A stretch of 64,000 bases of DNA, taken from a virus. The DNA lies in IMG/VR virus record IMGVR_UViG_3300044922_000175, positions 61,940 to 125,939 of that record. One strand, given 5' to 3'. The position numbers were made by a program, and so were the translations under genes. The notes beneath the pieces are model-generated. The model made no database searches. It was given only the letters and a program-made list of their open reading frames with translations, and had not been told where the DNA came from. Shown piece after piece: positions 28,340-57,242 of this stretch (its first letter is position 1; every line of letters starts with the position of its first letter).

Positions 28340-31300
28340 TTATCTTTTTGTTTAATTCTTGAACTTGATTTGTTAATTCTTTTACTGCACCGATAAGAGC
28401 AGCAGTTAAGCGTGAGTAGTGAACCCCTATAGGTTCTCCGTTCTCATCGTATTGTACAAACTCTGGGTATACTTCTGCCACTTCTTCTGCAATAAGTCCT
28501 AACTCCATAGTCTGAGACCCAATCTTATTATAAGTGACTGGTCTCAAATTTACTACCTTTTCCAAATTTCCCTCGCTAGTTTCTACATTTTCTTTTAGTT
28601 TAATAGAAGAGTTTTCTGTGATAGTTCCGTTAACTATTAAACTATTGTATATAGTGTGTACTCCAGCACCGTCTATTCTCCAAGCAAATCCAGATCCTCC
28701 TCCGTCACTCTTGTAAACATAAAACTCTCCATCTCTACCTACTACTTCCCATTTATTATTTGCAGCAGCGTCTTGGAATTGAATAATATTTCCAGAGCCC
28801 CTAATATACATTACTCTACTAGAACCATCATTTGTAAGAATTGCGTGAGTAGCGTTTACCTGTCCAATATTAATGACATTGTTGCCATTCATATTGATAC
28901 TACCACTCATTGTACCTCCAGCAAGAGGAAGCTTAGCAGCAATACTATTAGTTACTGTGGTAGCAAAGTTTGAATCATCTCCTAATGCAGCAGCCAATTC
29001 GTCTAGTGTATCTAATACTCCTGGTGCTCCTGCAATTAAGTTGTTGATTTGAGTAGTTACATAAGATGTAGTAGCATACCCAGAAGAAGCGTGATTACCC
29101 CATCCAAAGGCTGTGTTCCAATTAGTGCTATTGCCACCAGTTGCTGTAATTACTCCAGTAGATTCAAGTGCCGCATCAAATCTAAACTGACTTCCGTTAT
29201 AGCGAAGATTATTACTAGTATACCCACCTCTATGAAAGTTGATTACAATATTTCCAGCATCACTATTCTCAAGACTAAATGTGTGATCGCTATTAGGCCA
29301 AGAACCATCAATAGTTCCAATATTTCTAAATACTTTTAATCCCGCAAGTGCTGAATTATATATATCATTTCTTACAAATACTGACGCTTGTAGACCATCG
29401 AGCAGATCAGCATCTAATCCACTTCCACTTCCATCATTACCTGCGTGCCATACTGTACTTCCGCTTACTTGAAAACCTCCATCTGCTCTCATTAATCCTG
29501 GAGTGTATACACCAGAACCATAATCTCCACTTTGGTTAAGTCTTAGCCAAGAATCGGTTGAATCAATTGTATTTTTTCCTCTTAGATTTACTCCATTAGC
29601 AGTCAATGCCATATGCTCGTATGAGCCATAACCTTCATTATTAAATATAAAAGTCTGAGCATTAAACTTATGGGTAGACCCACTTGCGTATGTTCTAGTA
29701 GTCCAGGCTCCTATATTTCCTGTGGTGTGTCCAAAATATATAAAGTTACTTCCTACAATACCTAAAGCACCATTAACATCTAATTTAACTTGAGGAGTGC
29801 TAGTTCCAATACCCACATTCCCTGATATAATAGCTCCACCACTAGGAGGAGTTGCTCCTCCATATCCTACAGTAAGTCCTCCATCAGTTCCTAATAGTCC
29901 TGTTTGAGTCCAGATAGATTTATAGTTTACAGTTCTAATCCAAGAAGAATCTTGCATGTAGAATCCACCACCATAACTAGGGAAATAAAGTGCTGAAGTT
30001 CCACTAATATGTAAGTTCTGACTTGTACTTAGACCACTTGCACCAATAGAAACCTGAACATTATTAGAACTATCTCTAAAGTACATATTTCTCCAAAGAG
30101 AGTTATCTTGTGCTTTATTGATAATTCCTAATTCATATTGGCCAGGTCTACCCATTACATATTCCCACTGAGAAAACCAAGTAGCAACTGAAGAGCCTGA
30201 GTTAATAGTAATCTCTATTTCAACCATATAGTTGCCACCAGGAACGTTACCTCTCCAAACGGCATAAGAAGCATTATTAGCTACGTTAGTCCATCCTGAT
30301 ATATTTTCCCAGGTTCCATTTTGCCGTCTTACTCTTCCTGAAACAGATGCAGGAATTTGTACGTAATAGAAAGAAAGATATACGTAACCTTCTGTATAGG
30401 TAATTCCAGAAGAACCATTTCCCTTTGTATTTAATACAATAGAATAAGTACGAGAAGTATTTACTGGAATAATATCTACCCACTGGTCATAGTTAAGATT
30501 AAAAGGACTGTTAGTATTCCAAGCTACTCCATCCTTAAATACCTCAAATCTATCTGCTGCACTGTAAAGAACGTTATCAACTAAGTTAGACTTAATACCA
30601 TACTGACCAAATACAGGACTAGTCCAAGAATAAGAACCTGGACCAAAATATCCACTATTGTTAGTGAATTGTGATATGTTCATGGAAGTCAATGCACCAG
30701 CAGTAGCTGCATAACCAGCACTGTTTGCGTAATTTACTGATCCCGAACTTGTTACGTAGCCAGCTGAAGCATGGTTGCCCCAAGAGTAAGCGGTGTTCCA
30801 ATTTGAAGAATTGTACCCAGATGCACTAAATGTTCCTGTAACAGATAAATTACCAGAAGCATCTAATTGCATTACTTGGTCAGAACTAGTCTGAGAAGTG
30901 GTCTTGTACCATCTATGATGACCACCTGTATAGTAAGAAACAGTATCTGAATGTATACCAAAACCACCAATCCAACTACCACCATTATCATGCATAACAA
31001 TTTTGTTAGGTCCACGATTGGTATCACTGTGTAAGTTATCAAACTTCAACTGAGAAAAATCTCCAAAAGGTTGACTAGAAGAAGTACTAGCAGCACTTCC
31101 AATTGTTATATCTCCAGATGGAACTAAAACATTTGTAGAGGCAGCAAGACTTACAAGATTAGTTGCATAACCAGCAATTGTGTCTACAAATAAAACCCCA
31201 GATTGTATGTATGTATTTCCTACTACGTGTAATTTAGCTCCAGGACTAGTAGTGCCAATACCTATGTTTGTTCCATTATCATATATAATAGAATCATCTA

Positions 31301-32914: not shown

Positions 32915-35900
32915 TTAAAAATATTTATAACTCATTACTATGGTATAAGGAGCAGAGCTAGAGTTAACTGCATTAATTCGTGCATCTGAGCCCACTAGAG
33001 AGCTTGTAAAGTTAATAGCGGTAGTTGACCCTATATCAGGTGTAGTTGTTTCTGTGTGAGCGATTGTAGGCGTTCCTGACTGATTCCAAGTAACCATAAT
33101 TGTACCTGCTCTTTGATCTGTAGTTGTGTTGTTGTTCAAAATGTAATATTCAATAAACGCACACATACCTACGCTTACGTTCTGAGACCAAACAATAGTA
33201 GTAGCACTAGGATTAATAGTAGCCGTAGAAGACATGTGTACTACTCCGTTACCAGAGTTAACATTACCTACTCTTAGTTTATCTTGTACTCTTACTTGAC
33301 CATTTACGTCTAAGTCATATCCTGGGGATGCTTGGTTAATACCTACTCTGTTAGTTCCTGAATCATAGGTAAGCGCAGAAGCTCCTGCCAATGTTCCAGA
33401 ACTATTGTATTGGAATTGGGTATTAGATCCTCCTGGAGTTGTTGTTGCTATGGTCCAACTTCTGTTTGCGCTTAGGTCATAAGTAGTTCCATTAATAGTA
33501 AGCGTTCTTGCTTGGGGAACATACCCTGCAGAACTATGATTACCCCAGCTATAAGCAGTATTCCAGTTAGTACTGTTTCCTCCTGTTGCTGTAATAACTC
33601 CGTTTACGTCCAATAAAGTAGCAGGGCTAGAAGTACCAATACCAACAGCTCCCCCACCTAAATTAAATATTACACTATTACCTAACTCATTAATACGAAG
33701 TGGTTTAGAAGAGTGACTTTGAATCCAACTATAGGCACTGTTTCCTCCTAACTTTAAATTAGTTCCTCCACCTGTGGCTAATTCTAAAACTCCAGTACCT
33801 GATGCATCATCCCCACCTAGAATTGTTAATTTAGTATTAGGACTATTAGTCCCTATACCTACATTCCCTCCATTAAAATGAGTTACCCCATTAGATCTAA
33901 TAGCAATACTTGTTGATCCAGCCGATGTACTTGCAAACAGACCAGAATCAATACCTCCTGCCGCATATGCGTGAACATTACCTGCTACATGAAGTTTTTC
34001 GTTTGGACTAGTCGTACCTATTCCAAGATTACCAAAAAGATCAAATCTTCCAACTTCAGCATTGTTTGAACCAAAAATAAGACCCATTCCTGTACGCCCA
34101 TATAAGTAATAATATGAGCCACTAGGAAACTGATAGTAATTTCCGTGATAAAGTACACCACTATTATAAGTTAAATATACTCCGCTAGTTACAAAATTAA
34201 ATGAGCCATTAACATCTAACTTATAAGAAGGATTGGTAACACCAATACCTACGTTACCTGTCGATGTAATACGTGCTTTTTCAGAACCATCTGTCTGAAA
34301 GTACATGTATTCCGAAATATTATCGTATCCTATTTTACCTTTGTACTGCTCACTTTCATCTGTAAATATAATCCCAGCTTCCGCATTATATGCACCAAAC
34401 AAACTAATATAAGCATTATTTCCTGCGGAAGAATTTTGGAAAGAAGCTACGTTTCCTGTAGGTCCGCCTGATGTATTTCCATTAAGTAATACATGTAGTT
34501 TACTACCTGTTGTTGTTGTTCCAATTCCTACGTTGCCACTAGTATCAATGGTCATATCAGGACTAGAACCATTAGACGCTAGGTATAACTTATTACCACT
34601 AGTTGCGTAGACAGTAGCTTGCCCTGTATCCCAAGTTAATCCTCCGTATGCTGTCGGATAACCTCCCCAGAATGAAATTGCAGCACTAACAGTCCATAGG
34701 GAATTTGATGAGAATGTTCCGTTAACGCTTAATTTTTCTGCAGGGTTAGTAGTCCCTATACCTACGTTACCTCCAGTAGTAATGTTAACAACAGGATTTC
34801 CTCCGTTGTAGAGTCTTAATTGGTTTGAAGCACCAACCAAATACATTGAATTTGCTATATCAAGAGTTACTGCTTGACCTGCATCTACTCTTATTTCACC
34901 ACCAGCAACGTGTAATTTAGCACCAGGACTAGATGTACCTATACCAACAAGACCTGCAGAGGTGATGCGTACACGTTCAGTATCAAGTGTACCAAGAATT
35001 AAGTTACCTGCTTCTCTAGAAAAAACATATGCATCAATTCCATTTAAACCAACTGTAAGTCCATCATTACTTGAATTAGTACCTGTACTAGTATTATAAT
35101 ACTGTGTATATGATACCGTATTTGAGCTTTGAACTATGTTTACAATACCACTTCCTACAGTGTGTAATGTAGCTGTAGGACTGGTAGTACCAATACCAAC
35201 GTTTCCATCAGAAGTAATACGCATACGTTCTACTGGGGTATTGCTACCGCCTGATGCAGCCGTGTATAATCTTATACTTCCAGGACTTCCAGTTGAACTA
35301 TATGTATCTTGAGATAAAGCTATTTGAGAACCTGAATATGTATTAAGAATCTTAAATGCTGTAACTCCAGTACTTTGTCCATAATCATGATAAATAGCAC
35401 CCTCTCCATACCCTCCTGAACTCTGTAAAAGTATACCTTCGTCAGCGTGTGTTGCATTAGATATTCCTATTTGCAACTTCTTACTTGGATTAGTAGTACC
35501 TATTCCTACATTACCACTATCTGTTATTTGAAATCTACCTCCAGTAATACCTGGGGCATCAACAGTTAGTGAACCTGTGCCTCCTATGTTTAAAGCGGAG
35601 TACCCTCCACCATTAGTATCAATACGTATACCATTAGAGTTTCCAGAAGAAATAGATAGTTTACCAAACATGGTAGTAGTACCTATCCCTACATTAGTTC
35701 CATCATCAAAGATCTGAGAGTTACCTAAGGTAGTAGATCCTGTGAACTTAGAAATATAGTTAGTAGTTCCACTTGCATTGGCTGGAGTGTATCCTAGCCA
35801 ACCTGCAATTGTTTTATTTACCCAAAGGGTTCCGTTATAACCTAATAAATGCCCGTTTATAGGGGCAGTTGTCTTTAAATCTACGTCATGAAGCTCGTCT

Positions 35901-56162: not shown

Positions 56163-56327
56163 ATGACTTTTGAAGAAGCATCGGATATGTTTGCTATGTA
56201 TAGCATCAGTCCACAGTTAACTTGTCAGTGTGATGAAGAATTAAGAGTTCTTTGTCAGCAATGCTATGAAGACGCTAAGAATGAAAGTGATCTTAATGCA
56301 TTAGAGAATCAAACTTATGAAGGATAA
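56163..56327 (+). CDS. 54-aa protein with CxC...CxxC motif
   Basis: Translated by hand: MTFEEASDMFAMYSISPQLTCQCDEELRVLCQQCYEDAKNESDLNALENQTYEG. Confidence 0.6.
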   Translation: MTFEEASDMFAMYSISPQLTCQCDEELRVLCQQCYEDAKNESDLNALENQTYEG

Positions 56328-56335
56328 ATATACAA

Positions 56336-56367
56336 CTTGCCCTATTACCGGGTGAGTTGTATATTTG
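56336..56367 (+). promoter_or_regulatory. Bacteroidota sigma-A type promoter for the tRNA cluster, embedded in a long hairpin
   Basis: TATATTTG at 56360-56367 and (C)TTG at 56336-56339 with a 20-nt spacer. Both lie within the inverted repeat 56327-56365. Confidence 0.6.
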
Positions 56368-56373
56368 TACTAT

Positions 56374-56459
56374 GCTACTATGGCGGAATAGGTAGACGCG
56401 CAGGACTTAAAATCCTGTTGTCAGTAATGACAGTGTGGGTTCGATTCCCACTGGTAGTA
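56374..56459 (+). tRNA. trnL: tRNA-Leu(TAA), type II, CCA not encoded
   Basis: Full cloverleaf: acceptor GCTACTA/TGGTAGT, anticodon arm CAGGA-CTTAAAA-TCCTG, variable arm TGTCA/TGACA, T arm GTGGG-TTCGATT-CCCAC, discriminator A. Confidence 0.95.
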
Positions 56460-56545
56460 CAAACTTAATTCCGTGGGGGAATTGAGTGTTTTGTAAAATG
56501 TACTTAGTAGCATACCGTAAGATCTGCTACTAGGTCTTTTTAAAT

Positions 56546-56673
56546 AGTCAGGTGGCGGAAATTGGTAGACGCATGAATAAGGGTTAATAGTAAAGATAAC
56601 GTAGAGTAACCTTGAAACACCCGTAAAGTTCAGCTCATAAGTTATCATACAGGTTCAAATCCTGTCCTGACTG
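56546..56673 (+). ncRNA. tRNA-like RNA with a 42-nt insertion in the anticodon arm (GTA anticodon in one fold)
   Basis: Perfect acceptor AGTCAGG/CCTGACT, Leu-type D arm and T arm ACAGG-TTCAAAT-CCTGT. There are 76 nt between the D and T arms, against 35 nt in the neighbouring tRNA-Leu. Confidence 0.75.
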
Positions 56674-56740
56674 CAAAGGCTACCCAATAGTGGCCCTAAC
56701 CAATGAGTGGTTAAAATCTTTTTCATATCTGTATTACGTC

Positions 56741-56770
56741 AAAGGAGGTTATTGGGCCTCCTTTTTCTTT
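56741..56770 (+). terminator. Intrinsic terminator closing the tRNA unit
   Basis: AAAGGAGG/CCTCCTTT stem followed by TTTTTCTTTT. Confidence 0.8.
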
Positions 56771-56812
56771 TAGCAGATATATAATCTTGTAACTAATTAA
56801 TAAAAACCACAT

Positions 56813-56995
56813 ATGAAAAAATTTAATTTTAAACTAGTGTCCTCATTGATAATGACCGCATTAGGAATCACACAAATTTGTACTATGGTATTGCTTATGT
56901 TTACCGGTAATGTAAATTATCTGTATGCTGCCGTATCATTATTAGTATCAATGTTCTTTGTTATGGTATTCTTTGACCGTTTTATTGAAGATTAA
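56813..56995 (+). CDS. Small two-TM membrane protein
   Basis: 60 aa with a basic N-terminus and two hydrophobic helices. Confidence 0.65.
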   Translation: MKKFNFKLVSSLIMTALGITQICTMVLLMFTGNVNYLYAAVSLLVSMFFVMVFFDRFIED

Positions 56996-56996
56996 C

Positions 56997-57242
56997 ATGA
57001 GCCAGATACTTTCTTACCGTAAAACTGAAGAACCAGGTAAAATCATTCTTCTTGTCAAAGACATAAAGGGTGGTGAACATGAGGTTGGTCCCGTTAATCA
57101 TATAGATTTAAACTTCTATATGCAAGGTGGACATGTGCAATCAGCATTTCCTTATCTTAGTGTAGATCAGAGAGAGTTAATTATCTCTGGCTATACACAA
57201 CAGATGTGGGATGATTTAGTGGCCGGAATCGGAGGACTGTAG
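56997..57242 (+). CDS. Hypothetical protein
   Basis: The likely start is MSQILSY at 56997. Contains AFPYLSVDQRELIISG...WDDL. Confidence 0.65.
   Translation: MSQILSYRKTEEPGKIILLVKDIKGGEHEVGPVNHIDLNFYMQGGHVQSAFPYLSVDQRELIISGYTQQMWDDLVAGIGGL

What the first reader, a model, noticed from the sequence alone, without database searches (positions are those of the whole stretch)
56546..56676. tRNA-shaped RNA with a 42-nt hairpin inserted beside a GTA anticodon loop
Seen: the acceptor stem (7/7 pairs), D arm and T arm are intact. In one fold, TGAAT (56574-56578) pairs with GTTCA (56628-56632) as the anticodon stem, CC-GTA-AA (56621-56627) is the loop, and a 16-nt type II variable arm follows. The extra 42 nt (56579-56620) form their own hairpin (AAGGGTTA/TAACCTT) between positions 31 and 32. 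The identity elements are mixed: Tyr anticodon, Leu-like D arm, G73 discriminator, A1-T72 pair and C33 in place of U33. An alternative fold pairs ATGAATAA with TTATCAT and exposes a second anticodon-loop-like heptamer, CT-CAT-AA (56634-56640). Known: bacterial tRNA introns are self-splicing group I/II introns, far longer than 42 nt, and phages use variant tRNAs against anticodon nucleases. Inference: a tRNA mimic or decoy, a new short-intron tRNA, or a scaffold using tRNA processing. Intact stems argue against simple decay.
Basis: partly seen in the sequence, partly recalled or inferred. Interest (0 to 1): 0.78.

Follow-up and report, generated by a model that had tools for sequence, protein, structure and literature searches.

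The report
Phage tRNA shell carrying permuted RNA module
This lake-phage gene makes an RNA with the upper body of a leucine tRNA but no anticodon; in place of the anticodon arm it carries a rearranged copy of a folded RNA module that stands alone between tRNA genes in many E. coli-type phages, so the tRNA part looks like a carrier for a separate RNA of unknown function.

Summary
The tRNA-shaped RNA at 56546-56673 is real and under selection. Its acceptor stem, Leu-type D arm and T arm all show compensatory changes in relatives.

It is not a decoding tRNA. The proposed anticodon stem (TGAAT/GTTCA) and the GTA triplet are not kept in relatives.

It belongs to a very large family of uncultured-phage RNAs. 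They share a near-constant tRNA-Leu "shell" and have hundreds of unrelated folded "cores". This scan has reported the family before on other DNA. I found it in neither Rfam nor the papers searched. The closest known analogues are the phage T5 stable RNAs RNA1 and RNA2.

New here: this core is a circularly permuted copy of a ~95-nt pseudoknotted module.
- The module stands alone between tRNA genes in T4-like, T5-like, rV5-like and jumbo enterobacterial phages.
- In one Klebsiella phage it sits in helix P6 of a group I intron.
- A covariance model built only from those cultured phages hits the window once, exactly here (E = 3e-8).

Best reading: the shell is a carrier that gives tRNA-type processing and stability, and possibly charging. 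The module is the active part and acts in trans on an unknown conserved target. Expression evidence is only a weak hint, and the function is unknown.

The parts
56546..56552 (+). acceptor stem, 5' strand (AGTCAGG), pairs with 56666-56672
   Evidence: 7/7 pairs in the sequence. 6 of 7 pairs show changes on both sides among 35 relatives carrying the same core.
56553..56572 (+). U8-G9 and Leu-type D arm (stem GCG 56555-57 with CGC 56570-72; loop with GG)
   Evidence: Near-identical to the D arm of the neighbouring tRNA-Leu. D-stem pair 11-27 reads CG 30, UA 4. A canonical Leu-like D arm is present in 193 of 273 family members.
56573..56648 (+). core: circularly permuted copy of a free-standing phage RNA module, in place of the anticodon and variable arms
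   Evidence: Model R1, built from 13 cultured-phage copies, hits 56555-56635 only (41.8 bits, E 3e-8). blastn to Pectobacterium phage PM2 gives E 6e-5. The permuted core aligns to the module HMM in one piece, positions 16-89. 66 loci carry this core at 85-97% identity.
56581..56612 (+). module helix P3 (GGGTTA 56581-86 with TAACCT 56607-12); its loop holds AUAGUAAA and the P2 3' strand
   Evidence: Pair 38-69 reads AU 29, GC 3, GU 3. The same helix is present in alignment A2.
56595..56600 (+). pseudoknot helix P2, strand GATAAC; pairs with GTTATC at 56641-56646
   Evidence: Invariant within this core type, partly because of how the relatives were found. In free-standing homologues the same two positions covary at 6 of 6 pairs with 97% of cells paired.
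56604..56606 (+). helix P2a, GAG; pairs with CUC at 56634-56636
   Evidence: 100% paired in A2, with one CG to GC double change. RNAalifold predicts it on A1.
56614..56622 (+). invariant junction GAAACACCC of the module
   Evidence: Conserved in A1 and A2.
56623..56633 (+). variable cap that replaces the module's closing stem P1
   Evidence: This is the segment that differs between sub-lineages. In some it forms a GG..GAAAG..CC mini-hairpin.
56634..56646 (+). CUCAUAA plus P2 5' strand GTTATC; corresponds to the module's 5' part (CGCUC(A/U)UA(A/G)+P2), moved to the 3' side
   Evidence: nhmmer alignment of the permuted core. Sequence comparison with IME260 and My1.
56649..56665 (+). T arm (ACAGG TTCAAAT CCTGT)
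   Evidence: 3 of 5 stem pairs show changes on both sides.
56666..56673 (+). acceptor stem 3' strand (CCTGACT) and discriminator G73; followed by CAA, with CCA not encoded
   Evidence: In the family the discriminator is A in 244 and G in 27 of 273, position 74 is C in 269 of 273, and CCA is encoded in 10 of 273.
56374..56460 (+). genuine tRNA-Leu(UAA), the only tRNA of the 125.9-kb phage; a neighbour, not a parent copy (different acceptor and T stems)
   Evidence: ARAGORN and Rfam, 60.4 bits.

Best explanation
The locus encodes a stable, non-decoding RNA with two parts.

Part 1, the shell. It is the acceptor stem, D arm and T arm of a class II tRNA-Leu, shared almost letter for letter by a very large family of uncultured-phage RNAs. 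I infer that it makes the transcript a substrate for RNase P, 3' trimming and CCA addition, and gives it tRNA-like stability. In the A73 majority of the family it may also allow charging by LeuRS, which does not read the anticodon. This copy has G73.

Part 2, the core. It replaces the anticodon and variable arms and is an autonomous pseudoknotted module (helices P2, P2a, P3 and invariant junctions). The same module stands alone, closed by its own stem P1, in the tRNA arrays of many cultured enterobacterial phages, and sits in P6 of a group I intron in one of them. Here it is circularly permuted: P1 is capped by a short loop, and the tRNA shell is joined at the module's J2/3 linker.

I infer that the module is the effector and acts in trans on a partner conserved across bacterial phyla, or is itself catalytic or ligand-binding. 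The shell is then one of several interchangeable ways to make it as a processed, long-lived RNA.

Shown: the structure, the family membership and the module homology. Inferred: processing, charging and action in trans.
For: Shell under selection:
- Compensatory changes in acceptor (6/7 pairs), T (3/5) and D (1/3) stems among 35 relatives with the same core.
- These relatives share no detectable similarity with the window's flanks over +-2.5 kb.

Family:
- 288 elements, 273 distinct, length 67-160 nt.
- Their cores fall into 223 clusters, 189 of them singletons.
- There are up to 6 per locus, usually in tRNA arrays.

No anticodon arm.

Module homology:
- blastn hits to 52 GenBank phage records, none annotated at the match.
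- Alignment A2: P1 9/9 and P2 6/6 pairs with double changes, P2a 100% paired.
- R1 hits the window once at E 3e-8.
- The permuted order is confirmed by nhmmer.
- Free-standing copies occur in IMG/VR loci that also carry shells.

Module context:
- It fills the gap between two tRNAs in mogra, G2469, Stubb, pEp01 and KP13-26, and follows a tRNA in IME260 and RaK2.
- It lies inside a group I intron in VLCpiM5b.
- pEp01 has a hairpin inserted at the same linker where the shell is joined here.

Tertiary-fold hints: the U48-equivalent is T in 237/273 and C74 is kept in 269/273.

Weak hint of expression: a metatranscriptome contig identical to 56484-56674 ends one base after the discriminator.
Against: - No direct evidence here for processing, CCA addition, charging or any partner.
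- The RNA-library contig could be carried-over DNA. The same run has a contig of similar depth over 56871-57000.
- If the shell were only a processing handle, any tRNA would do and its sequence should drift. Instead the Leu type and even the acceptor sequence are strongly kept, which suggests the shell itself is read by something.
- This copy has G73, and 27 of 273 members do, which argues against LeuRS charging as a universal requirement.
- Within this core type P2 never varies, partly because my search pattern fixed it. Support for P2 in the window therefore rests on homology with the free-standing form.
- No conserved neighbouring protein was found.
Confidence: 0.6

Rival explanations
1. 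A functional decoding tRNA (Tyr-GUA, Met/Ile-CAU or Phe-GAA) interrupted by a short intron that is spliced out.
For: ARAGORN in intron mode proposes tRNA-Phe(gaa) with a 33-nt intron. In the window's own lineage TGAAT can pair with GTTCA.
Against: - The stem is paired in only 64% of cells in relatives, with no covariation, and the 'anticodon' letters vary.
- The ARAGORN model has two mismatches in a 5-bp anticodon stem.
- The Rfam tRNA model gives no hit at E<=10.
- The insert is a conserved module with its own long-range helices that use the supposed exon letters.
- Joints seen in RNA libraries are other family members with other cores, and they also occur in a DNA run.
- No bacterial or phage splicing system for 33-42-nt tRNA introns is known (own knowledge).
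Confidence: 0.03
2. The shell itself is the effector: a tRNA-body decoy or sponge for a host factor that reads the acceptor/T/D body. Candidates are LeuRS, EF-Tu, the CCA-adding enzyme, or an acceptor-end-directed defence toxin. The cores only tune folding or specificity.
For: - The shell sequence is extremely well kept, including the unusual A1-U72 pair, C74 and the Leu-type D arm.
- The Leu type is one of the few tRNA identities read without the anticodon (own knowledge: Asahara 1993, Larkin 2002).
- There are several copies per phage.
Against: - Cores are themselves conserved families with covariation: core A in 66 loci and other clusters.
- This core has a life of its own without any shell.
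- The discriminator is not invariant, with G in 10% of members.
Confidence: 0.17
3. A charged, anticodon-less RNA that acts on the ribosome, like a miniature tmRNA or a codon-anticodon-mimicking pseudoknot that enters the A site.
For: - The shell is of a type whose synthetase ignores the anticodon, as tmRNA uses Ala identity.
- Many cores, including this one, are pseudoknots.
- A73 in 89% of members.
Against: - Neither ARAGORN nor Rfam calls a tmRNA.
- Cores go down to 16 nt and share no reading frame or resume signal.
- The same module works without any tRNA body in other phages.
- This copy has G73.
Confidence: 0.08
4. A decayed tRNA-Leu gene that happened to receive an insertion (pseudogene), or an assembly chimera.
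For: The element is not called by standard tRNA finders.
Against: - Shell and core are kept at 85-97% identity in 66 loci whose flanks are unrelated.
- The stems show compensatory changes.
- The stretch is held at >=91% of its sampled words by ten lake-water DNA runs of ten studies, beyond the possible source samples.
Confidence: 0.02

Closest known systems
Phage T5 RNA1 and RNA2 (NC_005859 misc_RNA T5s03 30501-30644 and T5s06 32959-33083, annotated 'tRNA-like stable RNA with unknown functions')
   Same: - They lie in a phage tRNA cluster.
- They have an acceptor-like stem and a T arm.
- RNA1 has a Leu-type D arm (GCCGGAATTGGTAGACGG).
- A ~75-nt structured segment takes the place of the anticodon arm.
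- Function is unknown.
   Different: - There is no close sequence kinship. The shell model R2 scores RNA1 at 31 bits, like ordinary tRNAs, against 80 bits for the window.
- Their cores are unrelated to this one.
- The T5 region fetched lacks the module.
- They are not known as a family with exchangeable cores.
Phage T4 stable RNAs rnaC and rnaD (species 1 and 2; NC_000866 70908-71171)
   Same: Small stable RNAs made from a phage tRNA operon and released by tRNA processing. rnaC ends in a T arm plus an acceptor-like stem. Function is still unknown.
   Different: rnaC has no canonical D arm, scores only 24 bits with R2, and has no similarity to the module.
Unannotated ~95-nt pseudoknot module in tRNA arrays of T4-like (Mosigvirus, PM2), T5-like (My1, IME260, PM135, Stubb), rV5-like, phi92-like and RaK2-like phages
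   Same: It has the same helices P2, P2a and P3 and the same invariant junctions (CGAAUAAGGGUUAA.AGUA, GAGUAACC, GAAACACCC, GCUC(A/U)UA). Support: R1 E 3e-8 and blastn E 6e-5.
   Different: There it is a stand-alone RNA closed by stem P1, or an arm of a group I intron. Here it is circularly permuted, P1 is reduced to a cap, and a tRNA shell is joined at J2/3. It is in no Rfam family.
Engineered tRNA scaffolds for recombinant RNA (anticodon arm replaced by an RNA of interest; Ponchon and Dardel 2007, own knowledge)
   Same: The design is the same: acceptor, D and T arms are kept so that the cell processes and protects the RNA, and the cargo replaces the anticodon arm.
   Different: That design is man-made. 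Here it is natural, Leu-type, with the variable arm also replaced and a permuted cargo.
tmRNA tRNA-like domain and bacterial Y RNA YrlA (Rfam RF00023, RF02553)
   Same: These are tRNA mimics without an anticodon, joined to another functional RNA domain.
   Different: - tmRNA has Ala identity, no true D stem and a tag reading frame.
- YrlA has its ends at the anticodon side.
- Neither model matches the window.
Class II tRNA-Leu (Rfam RF00005)
   Same: Acceptor stem, D arm, T arm, the U48-equivalent and (in most members) A73 are as in tRNA-Leu. Many other members score 30-47 bits on RF00005, above its gathering score.
   Different: There is no anticodon stem-loop. This copy gives no RF00005 hit at E<=10. 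A1-U72 and G73 are atypical for tRNA-Leu.

Membership tests
Decoding tRNA (Rfam RF00005 / ARAGORN) | 7-bp acceptor stem, D arm and T arm with a TTCRANT loop | tested here: met
   Sequence; covariation in all three stems.
Decoding tRNA (Rfam RF00005 / ARAGORN) | 5-bp anticodon stem with a 7-nt loop at positions 27-43, conserved in relatives | tested here: not met
   The proposed stem is 64% paired with no covariation, and the loop letters vary. The ARAGORN intron-mode model has 2 mismatches.
Decoding tRNA (Rfam RF00005 / ARAGORN) | Reaches the family's gathering score or is called by default settings | tested here: not met
   No RF00005 match at E<=10 over 56200-57000. Default ARAGORN calls only the tRNA-Leu at 56374.
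Phage tRNA-Leu 'shell' RNAs with variable cores (informal family, seen earlier in this scan) | 5' AGUCAGG-UG-GCGG..GG..GACGC and 3' ACAGGUUCRAAUCCUGU-CCUGACU-N73-C74 | tested here: met
   The letters are identical apart from G73. R2 gives 79.6 bits, but the window is in the training set.
Phage tRNA-Leu 'shell' RNAs with variable cores (informal family, seen earlier in this scan) | A core between the D stem and T stem that is unrelated between members but conserved within a core type | tested here: met
   223 core clusters among 273 elements. This core type occurs in 66 loci at 85-97% identity.
Free-standing phage pseudoknot module (model R1, alignment A2) | Helices P3, P2 (pseudoknot) and P2a with the invariant junction sequences | tested here: met
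   R1 41.8 bits, E 3e-8, the single hit in 64 kb. P2 and P2a partners are present at 56595-600/56641-46 and 56604-06/56634-36.
Free-standing phage pseudoknot module (model R1, alignment A2) | Closing stem P1 that joins the 5' and 3' ends, in the order P1-P2-P3-P2'-P3'-P1' | tested here: not met
   The order is permuted and P1 is replaced by an 11-nt cap at 56623-33. R1's P1 alignment in the window is spurious and 18 model positions are deleted.
tmRNA | tRNA-Ala-like domain plus a tag reading frame and pseudoknots; called by ARAGORN -m or RF00023 | tested here: not met
   ARAGORN -m finds nothing at 80% threshold. No RF00023 match.
Group I intron in a tRNA-Leu gene | Catalytic core P3-P9 (RF00028) inserted in the anticodon loop | tested here: not met
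   No RF00028 match in the window. The insert is 76 nt. RF00028 does match L512, where the module is only an arm (P6) of the intron.
T5 RNA1/RNA2-type tRNA-like stable RNAs | Stable RNA of a phage tRNA region with tRNA-like ends and a long non-tRNA middle | tested here: inconclusive
   The architecture is shared. By sequence RNA1 scores no better than ordinary tRNAs on R2. Stability and processing of the window's RNA were not tested.

The most novel reading that the evidence does not exclude
Phages have a natural 'plug-and-play' RNA expression system. A leucine-tRNA chassis, possibly charged and handled like a tRNA, displays a library of hundreds of autonomous RNA effectors such as aptamers, ribozymes or anti-defence decoys. 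The effector in this window is an ancient module shared by phages of distant hosts, from E. coli phages to lake phages. It can be moved between three carriers: free between tRNAs, an arm of a group I intron, or a tRNA shell. This implies a target or chemistry common to many bacteria.
Probability: 0.3. Interest if true: 0.9.

Novelty: new variant of a known kind. Interest (0 to 1): 0.72.

Why it matters
Small stable RNAs in phage tRNA clusters (T4 species 1 and 2; T5 RNA1 and RNA2) have been known for decades without a function. This window links two apparently undescribed and very widespread phage RNA classes. One is the tRNA-Leu shell family of uncultured phages. The other is a pseudoknotted module present in cultured, genetically tractable E. 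coli, Klebsiella, Proteus and Pectobacterium phages. The link shows that the shell cores are autonomous domains that can be transplanted and even permuted. That makes the question testable: the module can be deleted or mutated in a Mosigvirus or a T5-like phage. The natural shell also offers a ready design for stable RNA display in bacteria. Finally, it warns annotators that such genes are neither tRNAs with introns nor pseudogenes.

Tried and rejected
- **Rfam on the cores:** a scan of 17 shell-rich loci (about 48 shell RNAs) at E<=0.05 gave no core matching a known family. Many shells matched RF00005 with a large insertion. A near-threshold freshwater-1 hit in L100 lies outside any shell.
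- **Rfam on the module:** no family matches it in 13 cultured-phage loci.
- **Neighbouring genes:** I clustered 2135 ORFs within 3 kb of the elements in 264 loci. No protein family was present in more than 18 loci, and none was tied to this core type.
- **Window's flanks and the 3' trailer hairpins (56678-56770):** they are not conserved in any of about 500 loci. I did not pursue the 'kissing loop' idea.
- **Shell in cultured phages:** no match beyond chance T-arm hits to ordinary tRNAs in 50,697 GenBank phage records.
- **Module in E. coli:** no match in 5,426 complete genomes. It is therefore not in prophages and has no long antisense target in the host.
- **Host or kin of the phage:** an exonuclease tblastn gave only 26-31% matches to mycobacteriophages and crAss-like phages, which is uninformative. 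MAG bins holding the shell span many phyla and are probably mis-binned phage contigs.
- **Whole-element MFE folding:** z = -0.74, uninformative for a pseudoknotted RNA.
- **RNA libraries:** only contigs were available, so ends, strand and level cannot be read. Parts without cover say nothing.
- **True tRNA-Leu with this shell:** ARAGORN's few 'tRNA-Leu' calls among shell elements have mismatched anticodon stems or vanish on re-run. No bona fide parent tRNA was found.
- **Papers:** four full-text searches found no description of either family. A 2023 survey lists some IMG/VR 'tRNA or tRNA-like' candidates that I could not compare. A 2026 preprint on three tRNA-mimic families concerns other RNAs.

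Full report
**What is there.** The window is the second half of a 125,939-bp IMG/VR phage record rated complete (34% G+C). Its only standard tRNA is tRNA-Leu(UAA) at 56374-56460. About 85 nt downstream, after two terminator-like hairpins, lies the flagged element. It has a 7-bp acceptor stem (56546-52 with 56666-72), U8-G9, and a D arm that is almost the D arm of the neighbouring tRNA-Leu. It also has a T arm (56649-65) and discriminator G (56673), followed by CAA rather than CCA. Between the D stem and the T stem lie 76 nt (56573-56648) instead of the ~40 nt of a class II anticodon arm plus variable arm. Default ARAGORN and the Rfam tRNA model do not call it, even at E<=10. ARAGORN in intron mode forces a tRNA-Phe(gaa) with a 33-nt intron and a mismatched anticodon stem.

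**It is a member of a very large family.**
- The exact 3' 22-mer occurs in 12 IMG/VR loci. All have the same 5' part but wholly different middles.
- From these loci I extracted 288 elements (273 distinct), 67-160 nt long with a median of 100.
- ARAGORN calls only 50 of 274, with scattered or impossible anticodons.
- The cores fall into 223 clusters, 189 of them singletons. Members of a cluster are well conserved and show covariation.
- One locus carries six shells with six different cores, and most shells lie in tRNA arrays.
- Across the family the discriminator is A in 244, G in 27 and T in 2 of 273. Position 74 is C in 269. CCA is encoded in only 10. The base before the T stem (the U48 position) is T in 237.
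- The window's G73 is therefore a minority state.
- The shell is absent from 50,697 GenBank phage records.
- In species-representative genomes it occurs only on MAG contigs from many phyla, probably mis-binned phage DNA.
- This scan had already reported the family on other DNA.

The window's core recurs in 66 loci at 85-97% identity. None of these loci shares any detectable similarity with the window's flanks over +-2.5 kb. Several carry different acceptor stems that stay complementary: AGTGAGG/CCTCACT, AATGCAG/CTGCATT, GACTAAG/CTTAGTC and TTTAGGG/CCCTGAA. On a 35-sequence alignment (A1):
- The acceptor stem has changes on both sides at 6 of 7 pairs, the T stem at 3 of 5, and the D stem at 1 of 3.
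- The hairpin GGGTTA/TAACCT is supported (AU 29, GC 3, GU 3 at one pair).
- The alternative stem ATGAATAA/TTATCAT is nearly invariant and thus uninformative. It also competes for the same 3' letters as a better-supported helix (and below).

So the body of a tRNA is confirmed, and an anticodon arm is not.

**The new link.** A blastn of the element against GenBank phages matched only its core. The best hit was Pectobacterium phage PM2, a T4 relative (E 6e-5). Other hits were T5-like phages (My1, DU_PP_V, IME260, KpGranit, PM135, Stubb), Mosigvirus phages of E. coli (mogra, G2469), rV5-like and phi92-like phages, and RaK2-like jumbo phages. In all, 52 records matched, none annotated at the match.

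In these phages the matching ~95-nt stretch is a self-contained RNA. Thirteen copies (A2) share:
- a closing stem P1, with 9 of 9 pairs changed on both sides;
- a pseudoknot helix P2, with 6 of 6 pairs changed and 97% of cells paired;
- a 3-bp helix P2a, 100% paired with one CG to GC swap;
- helix P3;
- long invariant junctions.

The module fills the ~100-nt gap between two tRNA genes in mogra, G2469, Stubb, pEp01 and KP13-26, and follows a tRNA in IME260 and RaK2. tRNA processing would therefore release it. In Klebsiella phage VLCpiM5b it sits in the P6 arm of a group I intron (RF00028, 69.8 bits) that splits the DNA polymerase gene. No Rfam family matches it. It is absent from 5,426 complete E. 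coli genomes.

**Homology and permutation.** A covariance model built only from the 13 cultured-phage copies (R1) hits the 64-kb window once, at 56555-56635 (41.8 bits, E 3e-8). It aligns UGAAUA-P3-loop-P2'-GAG-P3'-GAAACACCC and deletes the 18 model positions that hold CGCUCUUAG and the 5' strand of P2. Those letters are present in the window, but on the other side: GCUCAUAA followed by GTTATC (56633-46), directly before the T stem. GTTATC pairs with GATAAC (56595-600) in the P3 loop, and CUC (56634-36) pairs with GAG (56604-06). When the core is cut at GCUCAUAA and the two pieces are swapped, it aligns to the module HMM in a single piece over positions 16-89 (38.2 bits, against 32.8 for the native order).

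The core is thus a circular permutation of the module. P1 is reduced to a short variable cap (56623-33). The RNA is opened at the linker between P2 and CGAAUA, where the tRNA shell is attached. Phage pEp01 carries an extra hairpin at that same linker. R1 also finds unpermuted, P1-closed copies in uncultured loci that carry shells (L080 at 61.5 bits, L062, L057) and permuted in-shell copies (L180, L201, L265). Earlier notes of this scan had seen the free module in RB69-like phages. I found none that connected it with the shell family.

**How it most likely works.**

Shown:
- A tRNA-Leu upper body and an autonomous module are both under purifying selection.
- The module occurs in three different carriers.

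Inferred:
- The shell makes the transcript a substrate for RNase P, 3' trimming and the CCA-adding enzyme, and protects it as tRNAs are protected.
- The Leu type suggests that LeuRS, which ignores the anticodon, can bind or charge at least the A73 members.
- The module is the effector and acts in trans.
- The module's letters are about 80% identical between phages of enterobacteria and an uncultured lake phage whose host I could not identify. If the hosts are as distant as this suggests, its partner should be something common to many bacteria, or the module is itself a ribozyme or a ligand binder.

Against a pure 'handle' role, the shell is too well conserved in sequence. I keep a 'shell is read by a host factor' rival at 0.17.

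**Expression and reality of the DNA.** Ten lake-water DNA runs from ten studies, beyond four possible source samples, hold at least 91% of the sampled words of 56200-57000. In one rRNA-depleted metatranscriptome, a 192-nt contig is identical to 56484-56674 and ends one base after the discriminator. In another, a contig matches 56546-56668 with 12 differences and unrelated flanks, which is a relative with the same core. These are contigs, and DNA carry-over cannot be excluded, so this is only a weak hint. Contigs that match the shell ends with other letters between them occur in both RNA and DNA runs. They are other family members, not splice products.

**Comparison with what is known.**
- The closest described analogues are T5 RNA1 and RNA2, annotated 'tRNA-like stable RNA with unknown functions'. 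RNA1 has a Leu-type D arm, a T arm, an acceptor-like stem and a ~75-nt middle. By sequence it scores no better on my shell model than ordinary tRNAs do (31 bits against 80).
- T4 rnaC shares only the T arm and acceptor-like end.
- The design equals the engineered tRNA scaffold used to express recombinant RNAs (own knowledge).
- tmRNA, YrlA and group I intron models do not match the window.
- Full-text searches found no description of either family.

**Verdict.** The scaffold interpretation is supported, and the intron interpretation is rejected. I file the element as a new variant of a known kind, the phage tRNA-like stable RNAs. The added result is that its cargo is a permuted copy of a widespread, undescribed phage RNA module that can be studied in cultured phages.

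Noticed in passing
window 56374-56460: tRNA-Leu(UAA) is the only standard tRNA of the whole 125.9-kb phage. A sigma-70-like promoter match lies at 56337-56365, and two terminator-like hairpins (56463-56487, 56500-56541) separate it from the shell RNA.
   Followed up: partly
window 56678-56770: The 3' trailer hairpins and the terminator (56741-56764) after the shell RNA are not conserved in any of about 500 related loci. A trailer 'kissing loop' proposed on this window would therefore be specific to this phage.
   Followed up: partly
L512:260-564 (Klebsiella phage VLCpiM5b, ON602729.1 about 28514-28818): A group I intron (RF00028, 69.8 bits) splits the DNA polymerase gene, which is annotated as two CDS. 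The intron's P6 arm carries the same pseudoknot module.
   Followed up: partly
L507:393-492, L509:392-492, L513:354-463, L515:364-463, L506:393-491, L514:362-462: In cultured T4-like, T5-like, rV5-like, phi92-like and RaK2-like phages, the unannotated ~100-nt gap next to or between tRNA genes is a conserved pseudoknotted RNA with strong covariation. It is in no Rfam family.
   Followed up: yes
L484:5225-5369 and L488:7068-7216: Two relatives with the same core carry an extra hairpin inside the D loop of the shell. The shell therefore tolerates a second insertion site.
   Followed up: no
L100:5127-8052: One uncultured phage locus holds six shell RNAs with six unrelated cores (81-151 nt) interleaved with ordinary tRNAs.
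   Followed up: partly
L100:8501-8562: A near-threshold match to the Rfam freshwater-1 RNA (70 bits; gathering score 72) lies in the same tRNA array, outside any shell.
   Followed up: partly
L006, L024:3307-3409, L025, L021: Several other cores contain an internal T-arm-like hairpin (GGGTTCAAGTCCC, GGGGTTCGACCCC, GGTTCGATTCCG). This looks like a second tRNA elbow inside the shell.
   Followed up: no
L080:7276-7373, L062:5471-5591, L057:8162-8286: Unpermuted, P1-closed copies of the module occur in uncultured phage loci that also carry shell RNAs with other cores.
   Followed up: partly
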